DNA of 64,000 nucleotides. Origin: Candidatus Gottesmanbacteria bacterium GW2011_GWC1_43_10 (lineage in GTDB: Bacteria > Patescibacteriota > Microgenomatia > UBA10105). The notes under the pieces are model-generated. The model saw only the letters and a program-made list of their open reading frames with translations, was not told the DNA's origin and did no database searches. This document shows, piece after piece, positions 707 through 59,117 of this stretch. Location of the stretch: contig LCEX01000002.1 in the NCBI GenBank assembly GCA_000995415.1, positions 19,232 through 83,231 of the forward strand, written 5' to 3'. Position 1 is the stretch's first letter. Every line of letters starts with the position of its first letter. The position numbers were made by a program, and so were the translations under genes.

Positions 707-2176
707 ATGGATGACTCAGATGTTCCTTATCAACGTTTCAAGAAACAGGTGGCCCAAAGCATTCTAGTATTAGGGGTCAGACGGATTTTATACCAAGTCA
801 TACTAACTTCAGCTAATATCGTTTTAGCCCGAGTCTTAAATCCTGAAATCTTTGGTACATTTGCGATCATTTCGTTTTTTGTTTTAAACCTAGGTATATT
901 TACCAATTTAGGATTACAACAAGCACTTATCCAGAGTAAAGATGAACCGGATGCTAAAGATATTCAAGTATTTTTTACTGTACTTGTAAGTACTTCTATA
1001 TTATTTGTTCTGGCGATGTATTTTTTGGCTCCGATCATCGCGAATTTTTATGGAGGGAAACTAGGTCCGGAGAGTATTTTTTGGTTACGGGTATACGCAG
1101 TATATATCTTATTTGGCAACATAGCTTCAGTCTCGATGACCTTACTGGATAAAAGCCTAAACTATGTCAAACTTACCATGGCGGAACTTGCGACTCTCGG
1201 GATAACACAAGTCTTGATAATTATTTTGGCAATAAATGGTTATGGTTTAGCAAGTTTGATACTGGGAAATTTGATCGGTAGCATCTCGGGAATAATCATC
1301 TATTATGGGTTGTCGCCGTGGTCCTTCGGCATACATTTTTCTTTTTCCCGACTTAAACGATTTTTGGCTTTTGGACTTAACTACCAATTTGGAACTTTGA
1401 CTGGAGCTTTTAATGCAGCGGTCATTCCTTTATTTGTGGGTACTGTTTCTGGGCCGGCCGCGGTAGGGTTTATCAACATGGCCGGCGGTATCAGGCAAGC
1501 AGGACTCGCGCCTACGGAAATGATAAGTAAATTGGCATTTACCGCCGGGGCCCGAATCCAAAATCAAACACAAACCCTAAAAAAGCTAACCGAACGAATG
1601 TTTCAGTTTGCCGCAATTTTTAGTTTTCCAATACTTGCTTTAACTGGCGCCCTAGTTCCTCAATTTATTCAAATAGTGCTTTCAAAAACTTGGTTGCCGA
1701 TGATCATAACTTTATATCTATCTTTATTCCAAGGTGTATTTATTTTGTATAGCACTATTTTGATTCAAGTGTTGTTGGCATTGGGTCTTGCCAAAGAAGT
1801 CCGGAATATTTCGCTCTTGTGGTCTTTTATGCAATGGATACTGACAGTACCTTTGGTAGTCTTTTTTGGATTTAACGGAGCTGTCATGGCCGGACTCATC
1901 GTTTCGGCGACTTTTTTTATTCCACTTTCTGTACTTCATAACAAGGTAAAAATAAATATTTGGTCACCGACTTTACCGTATTTGTTTTTTGCGATCGTCG
2001 CTGCCAGTATCGTCTACGGGCTGGGAAAATTATTTGAAATTCATTTCTTTTGGGAGTTGTTGCTTATGGGGTTTGTTGGACTATTTGTTTACGCATCATT
2101 ATTATATCTATTCCGTGGACAATATCTGTTAAATGAATTCAAAATTTATAAAGAAAATTTTTTTTCAAAAACGTGA
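707..2176 (+). CDS. Polysaccharide/oligosaccharide flippase, Wzx-like (MOP/PST family)
   Basis: 489 aa with about 12-14 hydrophobic segments and the typical PST-family N-terminus (RILYQVILTSANIVLARVL); it sits at the head of the glycosyltransferase cluster. TGA stop overlaps the GTG of the next gene. Confidence 0.75.
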   Translation: MDDSDVPYQRFKKQVAQSILVLGVRRILYQVILTSANIVLARVLNPEIFGTFAIISFFVLNLGIFTNLGLQQALIQSKDEPDAKDIQVFFTVLVSTSILFVLAMYFLAPIIANFYGGKLGPESIFWLRVYAVYILFGNIASVSMTLLDKSLNYVKLTMAELATLGITQVLIIILAINGYGLASLILGNLIGSISGIIIYYGLSPWSFGIHFSFSRLKRFLAFGLNYQFGTLTGAFNAAVIPLFVGTVSGPAAVGFINMAGGIRQAGLAPTEMISKLAFTAGARIQNQTQTLKKLTERMFQFAAIFSFPILALTGALVPQFIQIVLSKTWLPMIITLYLSLFQGVFILYSTILIQVLLALGLAKEVRNISLLWSFMQWILTVPLVVFFGFNGAVMAGLIVSATFFIPLSVLHNKVKINIWSPTLPYLFFAIVAASIVYGLGKLFEIHFFWELLLMGFVGLFVYASLLYLFRGQYLLNEFKIYKENFFSKT

Positions 2177-4443: not shown

Positions 4444-5579
4444 ATAAATATAGAATCCATATTCTTTGCCCGCGACTTGGGATAACCGACAGAGGTGCAG
4501 AAGTATTTGTCTATGAGTTGGCTAAATATTTACAGCGCGACTTTGCAGTGACAGTTTGGGTAAGAAAAACCAAAGGTCAATCATCAATGCTTGCTGATCT
4601 AAAAAAATATGAGGTCCAGGTAAGGTATGCTACTTGTATCGACGAGTCTCACCCCATTGCCTCGACGCTCTATAAAATTCATCCCCTTAGAAAAGTCCTT
4701 GAAAAACTGCGCCTTGATCCGATGGGGATAGAAATGCTGTCGTTTAGCTTGGTTTGCTTGCCAGGATTATTCCGATCGGGTGCGGATGTCCTGTTTCCCG
4801 TAAACGGTATCTGGGGAGTTTTGGCTTGTCAAATTGTGCGTATCTTTACCGGCATCCCATTTATATATTCATCTCAAGGTGGGATTGAACCACCGGTAGC
4901 ATTTTTACAGCCAAATGTTTATATAGCAATTCACAGGTATACAAAGTCTTGGTTGCTTAAACATTTTCCAAAACTGAAAGTCGTACATATTTCAAATGGA
5001 ATTGATTTGAAACGATTTACACCCCATGGAGAAAAGATTGTATTGGATTTGCCCCAGCCAATCTTTATCACCGTCAGCGCCTTGATACCTACAAAACGCA
5101 TTGATCTGACCATCAAAGCTATGGCCAAACTAAAATCTGGAAGTTTATTGGTATTGGGAAACGGACCGCTTAAGGAGGAACTCACCCAGTTAGGTGTACG
5201 CCTATTAGGGAGTGGCCGTTTTAAAATCCTGGCCGTCCCCAATACCCAAATACCCAAGTACTATCGGAGTGCATCTGTGTTTGCTTTTGCCGCGCCTGAA
5301 GAAAAAGGCTGGGGACTCGTACATTTGGAGGCTTTAGCATGTGGATTGCCGGCAGTTGTAAACGATGAAGAAAATTTGCGGTCTTTGATTGGTAAGGCTG
5401 CATTTTATTGTGATGTTTATGATGCCAACGCGTATTCTCGGTGTCTCTTTAAAGCCAATCAGAAACATTTTAATAGTGAAGGTAGACGTATCGCCCAAAC
5501 AGTAGCGTGGGAAACTGTGGGAAAAAAATACAGCCAACTCTTATATCAAATAGCAGCCAAAAATGAAAAAAGTAACTAA
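4440..5579 (+). CDS. GT4 (group 1) glycosyltransferase
   Basis: C-terminal E-x7-E region GWGLVHLEALACGLPAVVNDEE. GTG at 4440 overlaps the upstream TGA; TTG at 4431 is an alternative start. Confidence 0.8.
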   Translation: MNKYRIHILCPRLGITDRGAEVFVYELAKYLQRDFAVTVWVRKTKGQSSMLADLKKYEVQVRYATCIDESHPIASTLYKIHPLRKVLEKLRLDPMGIEMLSFSLVCLPGLFRSGADVLFPVNGIWGVLACQIVRIFTGIPFIYSSQGGIEPPVAFLQPNVYIAIHRYTKSWLLKHFPKLKVVHISNGIDLKRFTPHGEKIVLDLPQPIFITVSALIPTKRIDLTIKAMAKLKSGSLLVLGNGPLKEELTQLGVRLLGSGRFKILAVPNTQIPKYYRSASVFAFAAPEEKGWGLVHLEALACGLPAVVNDEENLRSLIGKAAFYCDVYDANAYSRCLFKANQKHFNSEGRRIAQTVAWETVGKKYSQLLYQIAAKNEKSN

Positions 5580-48090: not shown

Positions 48091-49386
48091 TTATTTTTCA
48101 GGCTTAAAAAGCAACCACTCATAAAGAGGAATTACTTGAATTTTAAAGCCCTCAGATTCTATTAACTCCTTATCACTTTCGGTAATGATTAGCAGTTGAC
48201 TCGGATTTTTTTGTTCTTGCGCCGCTGTCACTAAAGCATTCACTTCTCTATTTTTCGTCTCATCCGTCAACTGTTTTGTTACTTGAATAAACAGTTGGTC
48301 TTTGGGAATAAAAAAATCAACTTCTTGTTCTTGACCGGTTTTGTAATAATATACGTTCTTTTGTCTTCTTAGCAGTTCCAAATATACCACGTTTTCCATA
48401 AACTTACCCGAGTTTGGCGAAAAACTAAAACCCACTGATTTGGTCAGTCCAGTATCAATACTGTAAATTTTTTTAGCAGCTATCTGCTGTTCTTTAACTG
48501 AGTATGCATATTTGTTAACTACAAAAAACAACCAACTGCTTTCTAAATAATTTATATAATTTTTGACCGTGTTGACACTCCCTAATCGTAACAAGTCTTT
48601 AATTTTGTTAAAGGAAATCAAGGCCGAGGTATTGCTGATCAGATATAGGGATAATTCCTGTAGACTTTTAACGTTGTCCAACTTGTACCTTGTGGCAATA
48701 TCACGATACAAAACGTCGTCGTACAAAGTCTTATGAACTTCCAATTCCGGATATTTAAGTGCATCTGGGATACCACCTAGGGCAATATAGTCATTAACCA
48801 ATTTGAGTAATTTGCCTTTTTGAGCGGTCGTAAATATACTCGAGTTGTCCAATGTAACTTCTTTAAAGCGCAAATATTCACGAAAAGAAAACGGAAAGAC
48901 TTCCATACGAAATGATCGGCCGGTTAAGCGAGTACCTAATTCCTGGGACAATAAAGAAGCATTAGAACCGGTTATTATAAACTTATACCCTTGGTCATAC
49001 AGCCTTCTGATAAACCGTTCCCATTGAGGTACATTTTGGATTTCGTCAAAGATAAATATTTTTTTTTCACCATACAGGCTGATTAAACCTTCATAAAGAA
49101 GATCAAAATCTTTGACACTAAAATTTAGTAGTCGCTCATCCTCAAAATTGACAAAATAATAGTCCTTTTTGAAGTAAGTATCAGCTATTTGTGATAGAAG
49201 CGTTGATTTTCCCACTCGCCGCAGTCCAGTAATCACGGTAATTTGAGGTGAGTCCATAACTGGTTTTAAACTACCTAATATCTCTCTTGGGACTCCCCGG
49301 TCCTTGACCAAAAAGGCCTCATATTGTTCTTTCAGAACTGAGGCTAATAATTCCTTGGTAAGAGTGGTCGGTTGTCCAATTGGCAT
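48091..49386 (-). CDS. AAA+ ATPase, AAA_14 plus DUF4143 family
   Basis: Walker A ITGLRRVGKST and Walker B IFIFDEIQ; the C-terminal region is typical of DUF4143. Internal ATG at 49386 (MPIGQP). Confidence 0.8.
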   Translation of the reverse strand: MPIGQPTTLTKELLASVLKEQYEAFLVKDRGVPREILGSLKPVMDSPQITVITGLRRVGKSTLLSQIADTYFKKDYYFVNFEDERLLNFSVKDFDLLYEGLISLYGEKKIFIFDEIQNVPQWERFIRRLYDQGYKFIITGSNASLLSQELGTRLTGRSFRMEVFPFSFREYLRFKEVTLDNSSIFTTAQKGKLLKLVNDYIALGGIPDALKYPELEVHKTLYDDVLYRDIATRYKLDNVKSLQELSLYLISNTSALISFNKIKDLLRLGSVNTVKNYINYLESSWLFFVVNKYAYSVKEQQIAAKKIYSIDTGLTKSVGFSFSPNSGKFMENVVYLELLRRQKNVYYYKTGQEQEVDFFIPKDQLFIQVTKQLTDETKNREVNALVTAAQEQKNPSQLLIITESDKELIESEGFKIQVIPLYEWLLFKPEK

Positions 49387-49488
49387 GCATGTACTATAAT
49401 ACCATTTGTTTTCATTGTCAATGAAAACTTTAGGTAGGTAGTTTTCAGTATCGTTGAAAGCTTTTAAAGCAATAAAAATACTGTAATT

Positions 49489-51705
49489 ATGATTACAATC
49501 ATTCCTGAACAAATAGCTTTGTATCGCTCCTTTTTTAATACCCGCACAGATGTATTTGCTAAATATTGGGTAGATTTGTCAGGTAAAAAGTCCGGGTATT
49601 CACCAGTTTACCGTTTGAACCAGTCACCACAAGCATTAACTGATATGGTTATTATCTCCCATTTGCAAGGTAACCAAACCATCGGTGTATACCCTCTGTT
49701 TCCAGATAATACAACAGCCTTTTTGGCAATTGATTTTGATGGCAGTGAGTGGTTAAAAACAATCCAACATGTAGTAACTGTTACCCAAGATGACAAAATA
49801 CCCATAGCAATTGAACGCTCCAGGTCAGGCAATGGAGCTCATATCTGGTTTTTCTTTACTAATCCGATTCCAGCCTATCTTGCCCGGCAGTTTGGTAGAT
49901 TTATTCTTAACCAATCAGGCATCACCACTCGCAAAACCTTTGACCGGCTGTTTCCCAGCCAAGACGAACATACCGGAAAAGGTTATGGAAACCTTATCTG
50001 TTTACCGCTCCAGGGAAAACTAGCCAGCGAAGATAAAACTGTATTTATCACTCCTAACGGTAACACTATTCCTGACCAGTGGCACTATTTAGCCCAAATC
50101 AGGAAAATATCGGTAACTGAGATCCAACAATACATCAGTAATTCCAATAAGCCGGTTATCTTTAACAAAGAGCAAATATCTGCACCGCAATCAAATCAAG
50201 CTACTCATCAAACCATCGAAGAGTCTAACGAAACTCAAGTAGTTACTACCCAAGGCCAACAAACCAAGTTGATACTTGGTTCGCAGATATTTATCCCAAA
50301 TATTTACTTACCCGATAAACTACATCGCTTCCTCAAAAGCGAACTCAATTTCCCCAACCCTGAATACTTTACCAAAGAACGGTTTGGTTATTCTACCTGG
50401 CAAACACCACGGTTTATCAAAACTATTGAAGTGCATCCCGATGGCATAACTATTCCGTTGGGATTATTGGATCAAGTGATGAAATTTATTAACCAAGAAC
50501 AATTGCAGGTGGAAATTACCGATAAACGAATTACTACAAAACCAGTGAGTTTCCCCTCAACTATCAAATTACGAAAAGACCAACAACAGATTTTACATGA
50601 ATTGCTCACCTTTGACCGTTCAATTCTTCAAGCTCATCCAGGATTTGGAAAAACTATGGTGGCTTTGTATCTGATGAAGAAACGCCGGCAAAAAACCCTG
50701 ATTATTGTCCATACAAATACTCTCCTTTATCAATGGCACAAGCGCATTACTGAATATTTTTCGCTTAAGAAAGATGAAGTCGGAATAATTGGTGATAACA
50801 AATGGAATATTGGTAAAAAGGTAACCATTGCTTCCTATATGACTTTGAGCCGGCGCGGAGTGAAAGAGATTAAGGATAATTTCGGATTCGTAATTGTTGA
50901 TGAGTGCCACCATGTGCCGGCTAACACGTTTAGTACTGTAGTCAAACAATTTCCGGCTAATTATATGCTTGGATTGACAGCTACCACCTATCGTAAAGAC
51001 AAGCTGGAAAAATTGATGTTTTTGTATATTAGCAACCATACAGTACCAGCTAAAGAGCAAACCCCATCAAAACAACCGGAATTATCCTCAACAGTCGAAA
51101 CACAACTACTTACCCGCAAAACTGAGTTTGAGATACATAGTAAAGTGGATGATTTTCAGGAAATCAGCCGCTTTACTATTGTTGATGATAAGCGGAACAA
51201 CCAAATCACGAGAGATATTGCTGAGGTTTTGGCAACCGGTGCTAAATGTCTCGTCCTGACCGAAAGGCTTGAACATTCGGAAAAACTATTGGAATTGGTT
51301 CGTACTAAAACAAAAGGCATTCATGCTGCAGTAGCCACCGGTGTCATGACTAAAAAACAGCGCGAACGGATCACGAAGCGGATGAGCCAGGAACGGTTCC
51401 AACTCCTCATTGCTACCGGAAAGCTCATCGGAGAAGGCTTTGACTGGCCGGCTGTTTCCCACCTGTTCCTGGCTTTTCCGTTTTCCTGGAAAGGTAGATT
51501 GATACAATATGTGGGTAGAGTGCAGCGAAATTCTGAGGGGAAAATTCTAGCCGTAGTTCATGATTATTTTGATGACAAAGTCCCTATGCTCAAACTAATG
51601 TATTTCAAACGTCTACGTACCTACCGTAGTTTAGGACTAACCAAAATCGGCAATCCTCAAAAACATACCAGCCTACCCGAAAACCAGCTGAGTCTGTTCG
51701 GATGA
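49489..51705 (+). CDS. Fusion of AEP-type primase-polymerase-like N-terminal domain with SF2 (DExH/ResIII-like) helicase
   Basis: N-terminal motifs LAIDFDG (hhhDhD), RSRSGNGAHIWFFF (sGxGxHxW) and LICLPLQG. C-terminal Walker A GFGKTMVAL, VIVDECHHV, LGLTATTYRKD and motif V/VI ATGKLIGEGFDWP...YVGRVQR. Confidence 0.6.
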   Translation: MITIIPEQIALYRSFFNTRTDVFAKYWVDLSGKKSGYSPVYRLNQSPQALTDMVIISHLQGNQTIGVYPLFPDNTTAFLAIDFDGSEWLKTIQHVVTVTQDDKIPIAIERSRSGNGAHIWFFFTNPIPAYLARQFGRFILNQSGITTRKTFDRLFPSQDEHTGKGYGNLICLPLQGKLASEDKTVFITPNGNTIPDQWHYLAQIRKISVTEIQQYISNSNKPVIFNKEQISAPQSNQATHQTIEESNETQVVTTQGQQTKLILGSQIFIPNIYLPDKLHRFLKSELNFPNPEYFTKERFGYSTWQTPRFIKTIEVHPDGITIPLGLLDQVMKFINQEQLQVEITDKRITTKPVSFPSTIKLRKDQQQILHELLTFDRSILQAHPGFGKTMVALYLMKKRRQKTLIIVHTNTLLYQWHKRITEYFSLKKDEVGIIGDNKWNIGKKVTIASYMTLSRRGVKEIKDNFGFVIVDECHHVPANTFSTVVKQFPANYMLGLTATTYRKDKLEKLMFLYISNHTVPAKEQTPSKQPELSSTVETQLLTRKTEFEIHSKVDDFQEISRFTIVDDKRNNQITRDIAEVLATGAKCLVLTERLEHSEKLLELVRTKTKGIHAAVATGVMTKKQRERITKRMSQERFQLLIATGKLIGEGFDWPAVSHLFLAFPFSWKGRLIQYVGRVQRNSEGKILAVVHDYFDDKVPMLKLMYFKRLRTYRSLGLTKIGNPQKHTSLPENQLSLFG

Positions 51706-51749
51706 TACTTTTTTACTAAAAATGTCTGTGCATAGGTTAAAATACCAGT

Positions 51750-52472
51750 ATGGTTAAAATTAAAAGGCAAAAGCATTTAACTAGGTCTCCAATTATATAT
51801 GGTGGTGACTTACCAATTTCACCTGATACTAACTCGGAATATATCTCTTACCATAATGAAGTAAATCTTAATGACTACGACTATCAAAAGGTAATCACCG
51901 AAAGTGAACGTACACTCTTTGAGCTCAATACGCCAAGGGAAATTAAGAAAAAACTGCTGTTTCTGCTTGGAGGTTTTGCAACAGTAGAATGCTATAAACT
52001 ACTCAAGAAATTTTTTGAAAATGGAAATAGCGAGCTTAAACCATGGGCAACGCTTGCGATGCAGGATCTGCGCTTCAAAATTGAAAATGAAATACGTGAA
52101 GAAGAGATGGATATGATTATGACAGGACTTGGAGGAATGAATAACAAACTCCGTTTTATGGTAGTTGTAAGTTCCAAAGCTGGAAAACCTTTAACGGTCA
52201 CTCATAAACGAATTATTGAGAAGGAATTATATAAAACAGCTAAACAACATGATTCTGAAGTTGAGCAAATTGAATTTGGGAGAAATTATGCTTTAATAAC
52301 CATCTTAATTTCTTTTGAAGTTGCGCCGCAAACGCCGATGGATGCGTTACTAGATGTAGTAAGTACAAAAAGACATATACTTCGGTATCATTTCATGATA
52401 GTCAATACACATAAGATTACAAAAAAGGAAATTGAGGAATATTTGAATCTGGATGAAGTAAGAAAATTATGA
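51750..52472 (+). CDS. Hypothetical protein (ORFan), island-associated
   Basis: 240-aa ORF directly downstream of the helicase; no recognisable motif. Confidence 0.4.
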   Translation: MVKIKRQKHLTRSPIIYGGDLPISPDTNSEYISYHNEVNLNDYDYQKVITESERTLFELNTPREIKKKLLFLLGGFATVECYKLLKKFFENGNSELKPWATLAMQDLRFKIENEIREEEMDMIMTGLGGMNNKLRFMVVVSSKAGKPLTVTHKRIIEKELYKTAKQHDSEVEQIEFGRNYALITILISFEVAPQTPMDALLDVVSTKRHILRYHFMIVNTHKITKKEIEEYLNLDEVRKL

Positions 52473-52855
52473 ACCTGAAACAGCATTTGAAATCTTTATC
52501 GAAAGACCAACTTATTAAGGAAATTCAAACGCTTTCCACTAAATTTCTTCAAGTTAAACAATATTATGAACTAAGGATTAAAGAAAACACAAGTAATGAA
52601 ATACTTGCAGTATACAAAAAACGGATCAAGGAGGAATTTTTCCCAACTCATGGATTTGGAGATGGCAGACTTTCAGTTGCGAGAAAACCGATCCAAGAAT
52701 ACAAAAAAATCGCTACCGATCAATTAGAAATTATTGATTTGATGCTCTATTACGTTGAGATCGGCGTGAAATACACTCGCGCCTATGGTGATATTAATGA
52801 GCAGTTTTATAACAGCATGGAAAATATGTACGAAAATGCTTTGGGACTTATTTAA
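52469..52855 (+). CDS. Hypothetical protein (ORFan), translationally coupled to the upstream ORF
   Basis: ATGA overlap with the 51750 ORF; 128 aa, charged with a coiled-coil-like composition. Confidence 0.4.
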   Translation: MNLKQHLKSLSKDQLIKEIQTLSTKFLQVKQYYELRIKENTSNEILAVYKKRIKEEFFPTHGFGDGRLSVARKPIQEYKKIATDQLEIIDLMLYYVEIGVKYTRAYGDINEQFYNSMENMYENALGLI

Positions 52856-53353
52856 CAAACGAACATGCATAATGACTTTTACAATCGTTGTAAAAAGATT
52901 GTTACTGATACTGAAGGTATAGGGTGGGGATTTTATGACAACCTTTCTGCTTTATTCAAAACATATTTCAAAAAATTCGAATCCTAGTCAGAGTCACGAG
53001 TTTCGCACCTGATGTAGTTTGATGTACACTTAAAGGATGGCTAAATCATTGTGTACAAAAGAGCTGTACTCTACTTTTCTTCGGGTAACCAGTTTCATTG
53101 CCAGGCTCGCACGAGCCGAGCTCAGAGAAATCATATTGTCCTCTCGGTACTTACCTGGATCAAACAAGCTGCCCTACGAAAGCAATACAATATTTCCTTT
53201 TATCAACAACAGTGGAACACCATAAAAGATACTATTGCCCTGCAACTGAAGTATGAATTAATTCCTACCTAAGTGCGAAACTCGTGTCCTCAAGCGCTTT
53301 TAGCATCAATTGTTTATTTGAGTACATCATGTATGGTTATTATTGGGTAGTCT

Positions 53354-54280
53354 TTATACCTGATCGAATACTATTCGATTGAGTTCTGATTGCGGTGCTA
53401 ACTTTTTAACCGTTTGTTCCACCTGTCTTTTGTCCACATGAGCGGCAATAACCACAGCTCCATAGAGGGCGAAATGCAGCTTTTTCAAACCTAATTTACG
53501 GTATTCTTTTTTGTACGTTTTTGCTTCCAAAAGACCACGGTGATAAAAGTAGATTGGTAAATACAATGCAGGTTTTTTATGGATAAGATCCTCAAGTTCG
53601 TCACGATACATATCTAAGTTTTTTGCAGATTGTAGATAAAACTTGATTTGGGCAATCTGTTTATCTTCTTTGGTAACTGATTTCGTAAAAGGCAGTGAAG
53701 TTATCAAGCCATAGGTAAGTTCTGCCTGCTGACAAGTTTCATAGATGTCCCGACTTATGTTTCGACCAAAATATATAGTAGAAGCATAGTAAAGCCCGCA
53801 CGTTGTAATTACCCCCTCAAATGGTAAAAGGACAGTCTCAACTAAAAATGGCAGCGTTTGTCTTGGCCACATCTCTTCAAAAGCGCTTACAAGTCCTTTT
53901 ATCAAATACGCTTTTTCATCATGGCCATACGTTAAGAATACCGCTCCATCTTTGAGATATTTCACAATATAGAATTTGTCTTTGTAATGATACTGCTTCC
54001 ATGAACGAATAATTTCGGATTCGTGCTTGTCCAGATTTCTCGTTACGAGGAATTCATCAAATACGTTCGGATGAGTCCATATGAATTTAGCTATTTTGCC
54101 TGCATCTTCAGTTTTAATACCTTGATGAAAATCTTTGCCGAGCATAGTTGGAGCGAGTTTATATTTCTCATTTGTATTTTGAAGCAATCCAAACCATAGG
54201 TGATAAAAACGCGTTATTTGATCAGGCGTAAGTTGTGAAGATTGATTTACCATATTTAAATTTATCCCCTGTTTTCCCAT
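53354..54280 (-). CDS. Hypothetical protein (ORFan) adjacent to tRNA locus
   Basis: 308-aa ORF with no recognisable motif. Confidence 0.4.
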   Translation of the reverse strand: MGKQGINLNMVNQSSQLTPDQITRFYHLWFGLLQNTNEKYKLAPTMLGKDFHQGIKTEDAGKIAKFIWTHPNVFDEFLVTRNLDKHESEIIRSWKQYHYKDKFYIVKYLKDGAVFLTYGHDEKAYLIKGLVSAFEEMWPRQTLPFLVETVLLPFEGVITTCGLYYASTIYFGRNISRDIYETCQQAELTYGLITSLPFTKSVTKEDKQIAQIKFYLQSAKNLDMYRDELEDLIHKKPALYLPIYFYHRGLLEAKTYKKEYRKLGLKKLHFALYGAVVIAAHVDKRQVEQTVKKLAPQSELNRIVFDQV

Positions 54281-54368
54281 TGAATTGGATGGTCAAAAAT
54301 CAGAGAAAAATTCGAATCTCAGCCTGAGAGATTATTTTTAGATTGTTATGACAAGCCAAATTTGATGT

Positions 54369-54416
54369 GCTGAGGCTAGGATTCGCACCTAGGTAGCCCG
54401 TTAGGGCGATCCCGCC
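54369..54416 (-). other. tRNA-like 3' half (variable arm, T arm and acceptor 3' strand) of a split tRNA-like gene
   Basis: Minus-strand sequence GGCGGGAT-CGCCCTAACGGGC-TACCTAGGTGCGAATCCTAG-CCTCAGC. A 35-nt block (54374-54408) is identical to tRNA-Tyr 54435-54469. Confidence 0.5.
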
Positions 54417-54429
54417 TTCATTTAAAGTG

Positions 54430-54514
54430 TGCCAGGGCTAGGATTCGCACCTAGGTAGCCCGTTAGGGCGACAGTTTTACAGACTGTTGCGATTGACTGC
54501 TCCGCCACCCTGGC
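54430..54514 (-). tRNA. tRNA-Tyr (anticodon GUA), type II with long variable arm; non-canonical D and T loops
   Basis: Acceptor GCCAGGG/CCCTGGC plus discriminator A; anticodon stem ACAGT/ACTGT with loop CTGTAAA (U33, GUA, A37); variable arm CGCCCTAACGGGC; T stem CTAGG/CCTAG. The D-loop lacks GG and the T-loop reads TGCGAAT (G at position 55). Confidence 0.6.
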
Positions 54515-54527
54515 ACTATCAGTGATT

Positions 54528-54562
54528 GGCGGGATTGCGATTGACTGCTCCGCCACCTCAGC
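54528..54562 (-). other. tRNA-like 5' half (acceptor 5' strand, D arm, anticodon-stem 5' strand) of a split tRNA-like gene
   Basis: Minus-strand GCTGAGG-TG-GCGGAGCAGTCAATCGCA-ATCCCGCC. Its D arm is identical to that of tRNA-Tyr (22-nt identity, 54535-54556 vs 54487-54508). Its acceptor strand pairs with the 3' half at 54369-54375. Confidence 0.5.
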
Positions 54563-54624
54563 TTACCCTTATTTTAACAAATACGGTACTAATTAACCAC
54601 TCTAAACGGGTTAAAATCACCCGA

Positions 54625-55415: not shown

Positions 55416-55787
55416 ATGCAACTGCCCATAAATGCTCCTTCACTAAAGGAGAATAGAATAAAGCTTCGTAAAAACCAAACTCATGTTGAATTTCTTCTTT
55501 GGTCAAAACTCCGAAATAAACAACTATTAGGGATCAAATTTTATCGTCAATATAGCATTGGTTATTACATTGTTGACTTTTATTGTCATCAATATAAGTT
55601 GGTTATTGAACTTGATGGAGGACAACATAACGAAAAGTCTCGAAAAGCTTATGATGATAAACGAACCCAGTTTCTTAACGGGCAAGGAATTGTAGTTCTG
55701 AGGTTTTGGGATAATGATGTCATTAATAATATTAAAGGTGTATTGGAAGTAATTAAACGACAAATTGAGGAAAGGAACTCACCCTGA
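55416..55787 (+). CDS. DUF559 (Vsr/restriction-endonuclease-fold) endonuclease-domain protein
   Basis: Characteristic block YIVDFYCHQYKLVIELDGGQHNEKSRKAYDDKRTQFLNGQGIVVLRFWDNDV. Confidence 0.8.
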   Translation: MQLPINAPSLKENRIKLRKNQTHVEFLLWSKLRNKQLLGIKFYRQYSIGYYIVDFYCHQYKLVIELDGGQHNEKSRKAYDDKRTQFLNGQGIVVLRFWDNDVINNIKGVLEVIKRQIEERNSP

Positions 55788-59012: not shown

Positions 59013-59045
59013 GTTTATCCCAGTAAATCTCGCCTCCTGATACTG

Positions 59046-59117
59046 AGCCGCCTGTCGGGATTGAACCGACGACCTACTGTTTACAAAACAGTAGCTCTAC
59101 CACTGAGCTAAGGCGGC
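59046..59117 (-). tRNA. tRNA-Thr (anticodon UGU)
   Basis: GCCGCCT acceptor; D loop AGTGGTA; anticodon stem ACTGT/ACAGT with loop TTTGTAA; T arm GTCGG-TTCAATC-CCGAC; acceptor 3' strand AGGCGGC. Confidence 0.8.

What the first reader, a model, noticed from the sequence alone, without database searches (positions are those of the whole stretch)
54369..54562. tRNA-within-tRNA: complete tRNA-Tyr(GUA)-like gene nested in the anticodon region of a split tRNA-like gene with compensatory stem changes
On the minus strand the order is a 5' half, 13 nt, a full 85-nt tRNA-Tyr, 13 nt, then a 3' half. The 5' half reads GCTGAGG-D arm-ATCCCGCC and the 3' half reads GGCGGGAT-variable arm-T arm-CCTCAGC-A. The outer halves share identical D, variable and T arms with the inner tRNA, but have a different acceptor stem and a different 8-bp anticodon-region stem. 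Both stems are fully compensated (GCTGAGG/CCTCAGC and ATCCCGCC/GGCGGGAT), which argues for selection on the outer structure rather than random decay. The 111-nt insert is too short for a group I intron, and bacteria lack BHB splicing. Precise excision would leave no anticodon loop. Three readings are possible: a processing scaffold where RNase P and RNase Z release the inner tRNA, an att-site arrangement from nested integration, or a new kind of split or permuted tRNA-like RNA.
Basis: seen in the sequence. Interest (0 to 1): 0.8.

Follow-up and report, generated by a model that had tools for sequence, protein, structure and literature searches.

The report
tRNA gene nested inside another tRNA
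In one groundwater Woesebacteria species, the top of the anticodon hairpin of the resident tyrosine tRNA gene has been replaced by a 123-base insert carrying a second, complete tyrosine tRNA gene; this 'tRNA inside a tRNA' is real and I found no description of it, and its outer halves are most likely only a folded leader and trailer.

Summary
On the minus strand, 54368-54562 reads outer 5' half, 13 nt, complete tRNA-Tyr(GUA), 13 nt, outer 3' half. The same sequence occurs in eight independent assemblies, so it is not a misassembly.

The outer halves are the species' own tRNA-Tyr gene:
- Their acceptor stem, GCTGAGG/CCTCAGC, is identical to that of simple tRNA-Tyr genes in relatives L197 and L198.
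- The DNA outside them, including a conserved TTGTTAAAAT promoter-like box, is homologous to the L198 flanks at the same offsets.

The inner gene arrived on a 123-nt insert (54411-54533) bounded by CCCGCC...GGCGGG. The insert replaced about 13 nt of the resident anticodon hairpin.

Most likely working (inferred): one transcript from the resident promoter folds as a nest, RNase P and 3' processing release the inner tRNA, and the outer halves are by-products.

A second nest was found, tRNA-Pro in a Patescibacteria MAG (L017). Its insert also starts with CCCGCC, which hints at a recurring mechanism. How the insert got in is unknown, and an independent role for the outer halves is not excluded. 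I rate it a new variant of a disrupted tRNA gene, of moderate to high interest.

The parts
54571..54580 (-). Promoter-like box TTGTTAAAAT (-10 TAAAAT). It ends 8 nt before G1 of the outer 5' half.
   Evidence: Read. The same box lies upstream of the simple tRNA-Tyr genes of L198, L197, L008 and, as TTGTTAGAAT, of L199. The upstream block 54569-54597 aligns 24/29 with L198 at the same offset, and 0 of 500 shuffles score as well. The generic sigma-70 scan did not call it.
54528..54562 (-). Outer 5' half. It consists of the acceptor 5' strand GCTGAGG (54556-54562), the D arm (54536-54555), A27-T28 of the resident anticodon stem, and CCCGCC, the left end of the insert (54528-54533).
   Evidence: The acceptor strand is identical to L197 and L198.
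54411..54533 (-). The 123-nt insert: CCCGCC, 13 nt, tRNA-Tyr, 13 nt, GGCGGG. It replaces about 13 nt (positions 29-41) of the resident anticodon hairpin, with no target-site duplication.
   Evidence: It is the only CCCGCC...GGCGGG pair within 600 nt in the 64-kb window. The boundaries come from comparison with L197 and L198.
54515..54527 (-). 5' linker AATCACTGATAGT.
   Evidence: It is partly paired with the 3' linker in the minimum-energy fold.
54430..54514 (-). Inner complete tRNA-Tyr(GUA). Acceptor stem GCCAGGG/CCCTGGC, anticodon stem ACAGT/ACTGT, discriminator A, no encoded CCA.
   Evidence: ARAGORN. Rfam tRNA at 53.7 bits.
54417..54429 (-). 3' linker CACTTTAAATGAA.
54368..54416 (-). Outer 3' half. 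It consists of GGCGGG, the right end of the insert (54411-54416), A42-T43, the variable and T arms (54376-54408), the acceptor 3' strand CCTCAGC (54369-54375) and the discriminator A (54368).
   Evidence: The acceptor strand is identical to L197 and L198.
54306..54361 (-). Resident 3' flank. It contains the weak hairpin TCTCAGGCTGAGA (54317-54329) and a T-rich run, a probable terminator region.
   Evidence: It aligns 42/56 with the 3' flank of the simple tRNA-Tyr of L198, starting 6 versus 7 nt after the discriminator, and 0 of 500 shuffles score as well. The terminator scan did not call it.

Best explanation
The locus is the species' own (orthologous) tRNA-Tyr gene, here called the outer gene. 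About 13 nt at the top of its anticodon hairpin has been replaced by a 123-nt insert. The insert is bounded by the inverted hexamers CCCGCC/GGCGGG and carries a second, complete tRNA-Tyr(GUA) gene with its own acceptor and anticodon stems.

How it works:
1. The whole unit is transcribed from the resident promoter, just upstream of the outer 5' half.
2. The RNA folds as a nest. The outer acceptor stem and an 8-bp clamp close around the inner cloverleaf.
3. RNase P cuts at the inner G1, and RNase Z or exonucleases plus the CCA-adding enzyme finish the inner 3' end.
4. The inner tRNA is the working tRNA-Tyr.
5. The outer halves are a 48-nt structured leader and a structured trailer of at least 62 nt. 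They stay paired as a tRNA-shaped by-product without an anticodon and cannot decode.

The insertion could be tolerated only because the insert replaces the function it destroys. The different acceptor stems reflect separate ancestry. They also make the arrangement hard to lose: a single slippage deletion between the direct repeats would give a tRNA with a mismatched acceptor stem.

Shown: the anatomy, the orthology of the outer halves, the insert boundaries and the fold prediction.
Inferred: transcription, processing, dispensability of the outer halves and the stability argument.
Unknown: the insertion mechanism and the donor.
For: Real and fixed:
- The unit is identical in eight independent assemblies.

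The outer halves are the resident gene:
- L197 and L198 carry simple tRNA-Tyr genes with the acceptor stem GCTGAGG/CCTCAGC, the same as the outer halves. L197 has the anticodon stem ATAGT/ACTAT, which shares A27-T28/A42-T43 with the outer halves.
- tRNA-Tyr lies next to the PPIase gene in L008, L197, L198 and L199, as it does in the window.
- The window DNA outside the outer halves aligns with the L198 flanks at the same offsets: upstream 24/29, downstream 42/56, and 0 of 500 shuffles score as well.
- The TTGTTAAAAT box is conserved upstream of tRNA-Tyr in the relatives. In the window it sits upstream of the outer half, not of the inner gene.

The inner gene is the working tRNA:
- It is the only complete tRNA in the unit.
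- The outer frame becomes a valid tRNA-Tyr only if a CTGTAAA loop is restored.

Fold:
- The unit gives a nested minimum-energy structure with z = -3.7.
- Pair probabilities are 0.99 for the inner acceptor stem, 1.00 for the outer acceptor stem and 0.92 for the clamp.
- The two outer pieces cofold at -46.6 kcal/mol, against -36.0 when folded separately.

Stem differences are ordinary variation between species:
- Five tRNA-Tyr genes show four different acceptor stems and three different anticodon stems, while their variable and T arms stay alike.

The nest is derived and rare:
- Four relatives have simple genes.
- About nine clusters of spurious ORFs over tRNA-Tyr genes show no doubled D-arm motif.
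- Of 1356 tRNAs in all fetched DNA, only this one and the L017 tRNA-Pro are nested.
Against: - No donor locus and no insertion mechanism were identified. There is no target-site duplication, no transposase or integrase nearby, and no other copy of the insert in 64 kb.
- The outer halves show no decay at all. The 54 nt of arms are identical to the inner gene, and all 15 stem pairs are intact. This is expected for a recent event but equally for a selected structure.
- The resident arms are of the A18/G55 type, like the inner gene and L008. The closest flank-homologue, L198, has G18/U55 arms. Gene conversion from the inner copy or allele replacement therefore has to be invoked or left open.
- The insert sits exactly in helical register with the remaining anticodon-stem pairs.
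- A GC-rich clamp also surrounds the inner tRNA in L017. Both of these features could indicate a structural requirement.
- No expression data are available.
- Whether the genome has another tRNA-Tyr gene could not be checked.
Confidence: 0.6

Rival explanations
1. Programmed two-in-one RNA. The outer tRNA-like frame is kept by selection. It could be a scaffold that promotes folding or processing of the inner pre-tRNA. Alternatively, after RNase P and RNase Z cuts, it could be a stable two-piece tRNA-Tyr-like molecule without an anticodon that has its own role, for example as a decoy, a non-ribosomal aminoacyl donor or a regulator.
For: - All outer elements are intact: 7/7 and 8/8 pairs, with D, variable and T arms identical to a working tRNA.
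- The clamp continues the anticodon stem in register.
- The outer pieces are predicted to stay together, with about -10.6 kcal/mol gained on cofolding.
- A similar clamp-plus-halves architecture surrounds tRNA-Pro in L017.
- The outer frame keeps G1-C72, A73 and the long variable arm. From general knowledge, these are TyrRS identity elements other than the anticodon.
Against: - The outer stems are explained by ancestry.
- The nest is absent from four relatives with simple genes.
- In L017 the outer copy looks degraded. The 3' strand of its anticodon stem is lost, it has two G.U pairs in the acceptor stem, and the outer acceptor stem is not formed in the minimum-energy fold.
- In silico, the inner acceptor helix forms equally well when the outer acceptor stem or the clamp is destroyed.
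- Strain diversity is 0.3% or less, so no test of constraint is possible.
Confidence: 0.22
2. In-situ self-insertion. A copy of the resident tRNA-Tyr gene itself was inserted into its own anticodon hairpin, for example by template switching. The inner stems then diverged by compensatory substitutions.
For: The D, variable and T arms of the inner and outer copies are 54/54 identical. Relatives L197, L198 and L199 differ from them in these arms at several positions.
Against: - This needs 6 compensated substitutions in the inner acceptor stem and more in the anticodon stems, with none in 54 nt of arms.
- The inner linkers do not resemble the outer flanks, as a templated copy with flanks would predict.
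- L008 shows that these arms are nearly invariant within the A18/G55 subclade, with 1 difference, so identity does not imply a recent copy.
- No thermodynamic pressure for stem divergence was found.
Confidence: 0.1
3. Scar of site-specific integration or excision of a mobile element at the tRNA-Tyr gene (nested att sites). The defence island on the 3' side would be the integrated element.
For: - A defence island (PDC-S01/AAA_14-DUF4143, AEP-TOTE primase-helicase, DUF6155 and a 308-aa partner protein) abuts the tRNA 3' side.
- In other Woesebacteria, part of the same gene set (the 308-aa homologue, with AEP-TOTE and AAA_14/DUF4143 in L193/L194) lies elsewhere without a tRNA, so it appears to move.
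Against: - No integrase or recombinase was found among the ORFs I scanned between 33 and 57 kb.
- No third copy of the tRNA 3' end exists in 64 kb.
- Integration at a tRNA duplicates only the part from the crossover to the 3' end and produces chimeric genes. Here a 5' half is duplicated too, and each of the two genes is self-consistent.
- The junctions share no overlap repeat.
Confidence: 0.05
4. An interrupted tRNA whose 'intron' (the inner tRNA) is spliced out to give a mature outer tRNA, either as a group I intron or by a BHB-like mechanism. Alternatively, an assembly artefact.
For: Patescibacteria often carry group I introns in tRNA anticodon loops, including tRNA-Tyr (PMC13011429).
Against: - Rfam finds no intron, even at E <= 10.
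- Excision leaves a 16-nt perfect hairpin without a loop, which ARAGORN does not accept as a tRNA.
- The predicted junction has no bulge-helix-bulge motif.
- Eight independent assemblies are identical.
Confidence: 0.02

Closest known systems
Group I intron-interrupted tRNA genes of Patescibacteria and Cyanobacteria (PMC13011429)
   Same: A bacterial tRNA gene is interrupted in its anticodon arm by an element that does not abolish tRNA supply. It occurs in the same phylum and the same region of the gene. In L017 the interruption follows position 36, which is a known intron site.
   Different: There is no ribozyme. The insert removes the anticodon loop instead of sitting inside it. Function is rescued by a replacement gene rather than by splicing, and the outer tRNA is never restored.
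Archaeal split and tri-split tRNA genes and permuted tRNA genes of Cyanidioschyzon merolae (reviews PMC4390854, PMC4033280, PMC3978253)
   Same: tRNA halves are separated in the genome. A GC-rich helix next to the break holds the 5' and 3' halves together in the RNA.
   Different: Here the halves are in cis and in normal order, and in a bacterium. No BHB motif is predicted. Joining the halves cannot give a decoding tRNA. The sequence between the halves is itself a complete tRNA of the same identity.
Archaeal pre-tRNA-Trp intron that encodes a box C/D guide RNA (my own knowledge: Clouet d'Orval et al., 2001)
   Same: A functional small RNA is embedded in the anticodon-region insert of a tRNA gene and released from the same precursor.
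   Different: That case is archaeal, with a BHB-spliced intron, and the host tRNA is functional. Here the embedded RNA is the functional tRNA and the host is disabled.
tRNA 3'-fragment repeats at integration sites of genomic islands and prophages
   Same: Partial tRNA copies lie next to a complete tRNA, with an island on the 3' side. Ordinary examples were seen in L035, L047 and L064.
   Different: Those cases duplicate only the 3' part, downstream of the gene. Here both a 5' half upstream and a 3' half downstream flank the gene within 13 nt, and no integrase is present.
tRNA-like processing signals (plant mitochondrial t-elements, MALAT1 mascRNA) and polycistronic tRNA precursors (my own knowledge)
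   Same: tRNA-shaped structures in a longer transcript are cut by RNase P and RNase Z. This is the processing logic I infer for releasing the inner tRNA.
   Different: Those elements lie side by side, not nested. In no case I know of does a tRNA-like frame enclose a tRNA.

Membership tests
Canonical bacterial tRNA gene (applies to the inner copy) | Complete cloverleaf scoring above the Rfam RF00005 gathering threshold, with a 7-nt anticodon loop | tested here: met
   53.7 bits against a threshold of 29, covering model positions 1-71. ARAGORN calls tRNA-Tyr with anticodon GTA.
Disrupted resident tRNA gene (applies to the outer halves) | Same genomic position, flanks and stems as the simple gene of relatives, with an essential part missing | tested here: met
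   The acceptor stem is identical to L197 and L198. The flanks are homologous to L198 at the same offsets, with 0 of 500 shuffles scoring as well. The anticodon loop is absent, and no tRNA is called unless a loop is restored.
Group I intron in a tRNA gene | Ribozyme core (Rfam Intron_gpI), typically 200 nt or more | tested here: not met
   Only the inner tRNA matches any Rfam family, at the gathering threshold and at E <= 10. The insert is 123 nt, of which 85 nt are the tRNA.
Group I intron in a tRNA gene | Excision restores a 7-nt anticodon loop | tested here: not met
   The joined outer halves give ATCCCGCCGGCGGGAT with no loop. ARAGORN at default settings finds no tRNA.
Archaeal-type BHB intron, split or permuted tRNA | Bulge-helix-bulge motif (3-nt bulge, 4-bp helix, 3-nt bulge) at the junctions | tested here: not met
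   The minimum-energy fold has an 8-bp helix, then a 2-nt/1-nt internal loop and 3-bp helices. No BHB motif is present.
Archaeal-type BHB intron, split or permuted tRNA | Splicing endonuclease and RNA ligase encoded by the organism | not testable with these tools
   Only 64 kb of the genome is available.
att-site duplication by an integrative element | Integrase gene next to the tRNA, and a direct repeat of the tRNA 3' part at the far end of the element | tested here: not met
   Pfam shows no recombinase among the ORFs I scanned between 33 and 57 kb. No further copy of the tRNA 3' end exists in 64 kb at 3 or fewer mismatches.
MITE- or IS-type insertion | Terminal inverted repeats | tested here: inconclusive
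   There is a perfect 6-bp inverted repeat CCCGCC/GGCGGG, extendable to about 10-11 nt with mismatches. That is short for a MITE.
MITE- or IS-type insertion | Target-site duplication and several copies per genome | tested here: not met
   There is no direct repeat at the junctions; about 13 nt of the target was lost instead. No other CCCGCC...GGCGGG pair within 600 nt exists in the window or in nine related loci.
Tandem tRNA gene array | Each repeat is a complete gene placed side by side | tested here: not met
   Only one complete gene is present. The repeats are spaced 48 nt and 62 nt apart, less than a tRNA length, and the order is 5'-5'-3'-3'.

The most novel reading that the evidence does not exclude
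Patescibacteria harbour a class of tiny 'replacement cassettes'. Each is a complete tRNA gene bounded by CCCGCC...GGCGGG-type inverted ends. It inserts into the anticodon arm of the cognate resident tRNA gene and survives because it supplies the function it destroys. The resident halves remain as a clamped, tRNA-shaped frame that may itself be stable or functional as a bacterial split tRNA-like RNA. The window (Tyr) and L017 (Pro) would be two members.
Probability: 0.15. Interest if true: 0.85.

Novelty: new variant of a known kind. Interest (0 to 1): 0.55.

Why it matters
Disrupted tRNA genes are known as group I intron hosts in bacteria and as split, permuted or BHB-intron genes in archaea and algae. 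A tRNA gene whose interruption is another complete tRNA gene of the same identity is not among the structures covered by the reviews and searches I could reach.

It matters in four ways:
- It shows a way for an essential single gene to survive insertion into its anticodon arm, by replacement rather than splicing.
- It produces a natural precursor in which a tRNA must be cut out of a tRNA-shaped cage. That is a ready test substrate for RNase P and RNase Z.
- It can mislead annotation, because standard tools see only the inner gene and miss the halves.
- If the shared CCCGCC end in two unrelated nests reflects a mechanism, it would point to a new kind of tRNA-targeting mobile DNA in a phylum already known for unusual tRNA introns.

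If the outer halves turn out to be stable, this would be the first bacterial split tRNA-like RNA.

Tried and rejected
- **Misassembly.** Rejected: eight independent assemblies are identical.
- **Selection test from strain variation.** Not possible: strains differ by 0.3% or less.
- **Genome scan** for two GGTGCGAATCC T-loops 35-65 nt apart. Of 57 loci, nearly all were unrelated tandem repeats, and only L017 is a nest. The window species itself was not in that collection.
- **Metagenome scan** with a Tyr-specific double T-arm pattern. It returned only the same species (L068).
- **Viral scans**. No tRNA-Tyr of this clade occurs in viruses. The double T-loop hits are tandem arrays or 3' fragments, and none are nested.
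- **'Orthogonal stems prevent misfolding'.** Not supported by pair probabilities.
- **att-site model.** No integrase and no third repeat.
- **Intron models.** Rfam and ARAGORN are negative.
- **308-aa downstream protein** as a possible RNA-processing partner. It has no family hit. Its homologues sit in TOTE defence islands without tRNAs, so it is unrelated to the nest.
- **Spurious ORF search.** I used the 44-aa ORF that spans the unit to look for nests in relatives. The word-indexed search found nothing. The exhaustive search found only ORFs over simple tRNA-Tyr genes.
- **MITE family idea.** No other CCCGCC...GGCGGG pair in the window or related loci.
- **Ideas considered and left as chance resemblances:**
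  - The clamp GGCGGGA-T / TCCCGCC-A looks like a permuted acceptor stem.
  - CTTTAAA in the 3' linker is one mismatch from the Tyr anticodon loop.
- **Literature.** No paper describes a tRNA nested in a tRNA. A search for the TOTE system found nothing.
Full report
**1. Observation**

On the minus strand the window reads, from 54562 down to 54368:
- GCTGAGG, the D arm TGGCGGAGCAGTCAATCGCA, and ATCCCGCC;
- the linker AATCACTGATAGT;
- a complete 85-nt tRNA-Tyr(GUA);
- the linker CACTTTAAATGAA;
- GGCGGGAT, the variable and T arms CGCCCTAACGGGCTACCTAGGTGCGAATCCTAG, CCTCAGC and A.

ARAGORN and Rfam call only the inner gene (53.7 bits against a gathering score of 29). The D arm and the variable plus T arm each occur exactly twice in 64 kb, where shuffles expect about 0. 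The repeat finder reports the 23-nt and 44-nt direct repeats at spacings of 48 and 62 nt, and the 11-nt inverted repeat 111 nt apart.

The outer 8-bp stem is in tRNA register: five pairs at positions 27-31/39-43 plus three more. The 194-nt unit folds as a nest at -80.5 kcal/mol with z = -3.7.

**2. Not an artefact**

The PPIase gene next to the unit led to loci from separate sample and assembly records in ENA, NCBI (GCA_000998825.1, LCFD01000003.1) and JGI. A strain with a 99%-identical PPIase (L067) and the only metagenome-scan hit (L068) were added. All eight carry the identical unit and intergenic region. These strains differ from the window by 0.3% or less overall. The arrangement is therefore real and fixed in the species, but population data cannot test constraint.

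**3. The outer halves are the resident gene**

Other Woesebacteria-like contigs, reached through PPIase homologues, carry a simple tRNA-Tyr next to the PPIase gene:
- L199 has it 74 nt upstream on the opposite strand, as in the window.
- L008, L197 and L198 have it about 1.3-1.5 kb away.

L197 and L198 have the acceptor stem GCTGAGG/CCTCAGC, exactly the outer stem. L197 has the anticodon stem ATAGT/ACTAT, which shares A27-T28/A42-T43 with the outer 8-bp stem.

The window DNA outside the outer halves is homologous to the flanks of the simple L198 gene at the same distances:
- Upstream, a block of 24/29 identity includes TTGTTAAAATAA. It ends 6 nt before the outer G1 in the window and 7 nt before G1 in L198.
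- Downstream, a block of 42/56 identity starts 6 nt after the discriminator in the window and 7 nt after it in L198.
- In both cases 0 of 500 shuffles reach the score.

The TTGTTAAAAT box recurs upstream of tRNA-Tyr in L197, L198, L008 and, with one change, in L199. It is the likely promoter -10 element, although the generic scan did not call it. In the window it sits in front of the outer 5' half. No equivalent box precedes the inner gene.

**4. The insert**

Comparison with L197 and L198 places the foreign segment at 54411-54533 (123 nt): CCCGCC, 13 nt, inner tRNA, 13 nt, GGCGGG. It replaces about 13 nt (positions 29-41: the upper stem and the anticodon loop) of the resident hairpin. There is no target duplication. 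The inverted hexamers are the only such pair within 600 nt in the window.

The inner gene has the acceptor stem GCCAGGG/CCCTGGC and the anticodon stem ACAGT/ACTGT. That anticodon stem is also found in L198, and it is implied by six of the spurious ORFs that gene callers placed over tRNA-Tyr genes elsewhere.

I found no donor. There is no transposase or integrase among the neighbouring ORFs I scanned, no viral copy and no other copy in the window.

**5. The 'compensatory changes' reinterpreted**

Across five tRNA-Tyr genes (window inner, window outer, L008, L197/L198, L199), acceptor and anticodon stems differ with full compensation. The variable and T arms change little, and the D arm is nearly identical in L008 but differs more in L197-L199. 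The outer stems are therefore inherited, not evolved to fit the nest.

I tested whether different stems are needed for correct folding. They are not, thermodynamically. The nest is formed with probability 0.99-1.00 even when the outer stems are made identical to the inner ones. The inner acceptor helix also forms equally well when the outer acceptor stem or the clamp is scrambled.

One consequence is an inference, not a test. A slippage deletion between the D-arm repeats would fuse mismatched acceptor strands, giving one mismatch plus two wobble pairs. A deletion between the T-arm repeats would give two mismatches plus one wobble pair. The arrangement therefore cannot easily collapse back to a simple gene.

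**6. How it most likely works**

Shown:
- There is one complete tRNA in the unit, and the outer frame cannot decode. ARAGORN finds no tRNA after 'splicing', but calls a normal tRNA-Tyr if CTGTAAA is restored.
- The unit is predicted to fold as a nest.
- The outer pieces are predicted to remain paired after excision of the inner tRNA, at -46.6 kcal/mol against -36.0 when separate.

Inferred from standard bacterial tRNA maturation:
- Transcription starts at the resident promoter, close to the outer G1.
- RNase P cuts at the inner G1.
- RNase Z or exonucleases and the CCA-adding enzyme finish the inner 3' end, since no CCA is encoded.
- The outer halves are a structured leader and trailer.

**7. 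A second case, and rarity**

A genome-collection scan for two GGTGCGAATCC T-loops 35-65 nt apart gave mostly unrelated repeats, but also L017, a Patescibacteria MAG. In L017 an intact tRNA-Pro(CGG) lies between a 5' piece (positions 1-36) and a 3' piece (about 45-73) of a tRNA-Pro gene. It is enclosed by a 12-bp clamp with 4-nt linkers.

In L017 the outer copy looks worn. The 3' strand of its anticodon stem is unrecognisable, there are two G.U pairs in the acceptor stem, and the outer acceptor stem is not formed in the minimum-energy fold.

The L017 insert also begins with CCCGCC, directly after the last resident base. Its right end, GGTGGGCAGA, is close to the complement of its left end. This observation is post hoc. 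The hexamer occurs only about once per 6 kb per strand in the window, so I record it as unexplained and as the main hint of a shared mechanism.

Among 1356 ARAGORN tRNAs in all DNA fetched, only these two have a 5' fragment upstream and a 3' fragment downstream at less than a tRNA length. That sample is biased towards phage tRNA arrays.

**8. Rivals**

- **A functional outer frame** cannot be excluded. It is perfectly intact, the clamp is in register, and L017 has a clamp too. There is no positive evidence for it, however, and the nest is missing from four relatives.
- **Self-insertion of the resident gene followed by divergence** would need many compensated changes in stems and none in 54 nt of arms.
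- **An integration scar** fails on three counts: no integrase, no third repeat, and a duplicated 5' half.
- **Intron readings** fail the Rfam, ARAGORN and BHB checks.

**9. Open points**

- The resident arms are of the A18/G55 type, like the inner gene and L008, whereas L198, the best flank homologue, has G18/U55 arms. Natural tRNA-Tyr genes that combine an outer-like acceptor stem (GCYGAGG) with A18/G55 arms seem to exist (spurious ORF P0142). Gene conversion from the inner copy is therefore possible but not required.
- The defence island on the 3' side ends right at the tRNA unit. It lacks the small CcbP-like gene that precedes the 308-aa homologue in relatives. The locus has therefore seen other rearrangements.

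**10. Comparison with known systems, and verdict**

The closest known systems are:
- group I intron-interrupted tRNA genes of Patescibacteria (PMC13011429);
- archaeal split and permuted genes (PMC4390854, PMC4033280, PMC3978253);
- the archaeal tRNA-Trp intron that carries a C/D guide RNA (my own knowledge);
- att-site fragment repeats.

The nest fails the defining features of each (see the membership tests). Full-text searches found no description of a tRNA gene nested in a tRNA gene.

I classify it as a new variant of a disrupted tRNA gene. The anatomy and the resident-versus-insert assignment are well supported. The mechanism of insertion and the fate of the outer halves are unresolved.

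Noticed in passing
window 54430-54514 and the outer halves; L008 4613-4698; compared with L197 3429-3516, L198 2741-2827, L199 4842-4927: tRNA-Tyr comes in two covarying forms. In one, the D-loop reads GAGCAGTCAA (the first G of the conserved GG doublet is A) and the T-loop reads TGCGAAT (G at position 55). In the other, the D-loop reads GAGCGG or GAGTGG and the T-loop is the canonical TTCGAAT. The spurious ORFs show the same pairing: AEQ with GANP, and AER or AEW with GSNP. This looks like a swap of the G18-psi55 tertiary pair. The L017 tRNA-Pro also has TGCGAAT, whereas the tRNA-Thr of the window (59045-59117) is canonical.
   Followed up: partly
L017 about 905-1095 (minus strand): A second nested tRNA: an intact tRNA-Pro(CGG) (962-1035) inside pieces of a tRNA-Pro gene, with a 12-bp clamp. 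The insert starts with CCCGCC, like the window insert. The contig is only 2 kb, so no context is available.
   Followed up: partly
window 48091-54280: A defence island lies directly 3' of the tRNA unit. It holds PDC-S01 (AAA_14/DUF4143), an AEP-TOTE primase-helicase, a 240-aa hypothetical protein, DUF6155 and a 308-aa protein with no family. Homologues of the 308-aa protein sit beside AEP-TOTE and AAA_14 genes in L193/L194. In four of the six relative loci (L190, L191, L193, L194) they are preceded by a small CcbP-like gene (52-104 aa) that is missing here.
   Followed up: partly
window 55416-55787: A DUF559 (Vsr-like endonuclease fold) gene lies between the PPIase and PGI genes in this species only. 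It is absent at that place in L007, L197, L198 and L199. It may be a selfish endonuclease about 0.9 kb from the nest.
   Followed up: no
window 54317-54329 (minus strand): The hairpin TCTCAGGCTGAGA downstream of the unit re-uses the outer acceptor-stem sequences in swapped order (CTCAG / GCTGAG) and is followed by a T-rich run. It could compete with the outer acceptor stem, or it could be chance.
   Followed up: no
window 54417-54429 and 54409-54416 / 54528-54535: The 3' linker contains CA-CTTTAAA-TG, one mismatch from the Tyr anticodon loop CTGTAAA. The clamp read as GGCGGGA-T / TCCCGCC-A has the look of a tRNA acceptor stem (G1, U8, A73) in permuted order. I treated both as possible coincidences.
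   Followed up: no
L022 about 4687-4744; L035 2779-2980; L047 4815-5030; L064 about 2780-2980: The Micrarchaeota contig L022 has two adjacent T-arm/3'-end fragments, and ARAGORN calls no tRNA there; these may be split-tRNA halves. L035 (Micrarchaeota) and L047 and L064 (Saccharibacteria) show ordinary repeated tRNA 3'-end fragments downstream of a complete tRNA, which look like att sites.
   Followed up: no
window outer 54365-54368 and inner 54427-54430; L008 about 4697-4700; L197 and L198 3' ends: In this comparison the A18/G55-type tRNA-Tyr genes are followed by CA after the discriminator and encode no CCA. L197 encodes the full CCA and L198 encodes CC.
   Followed up: no
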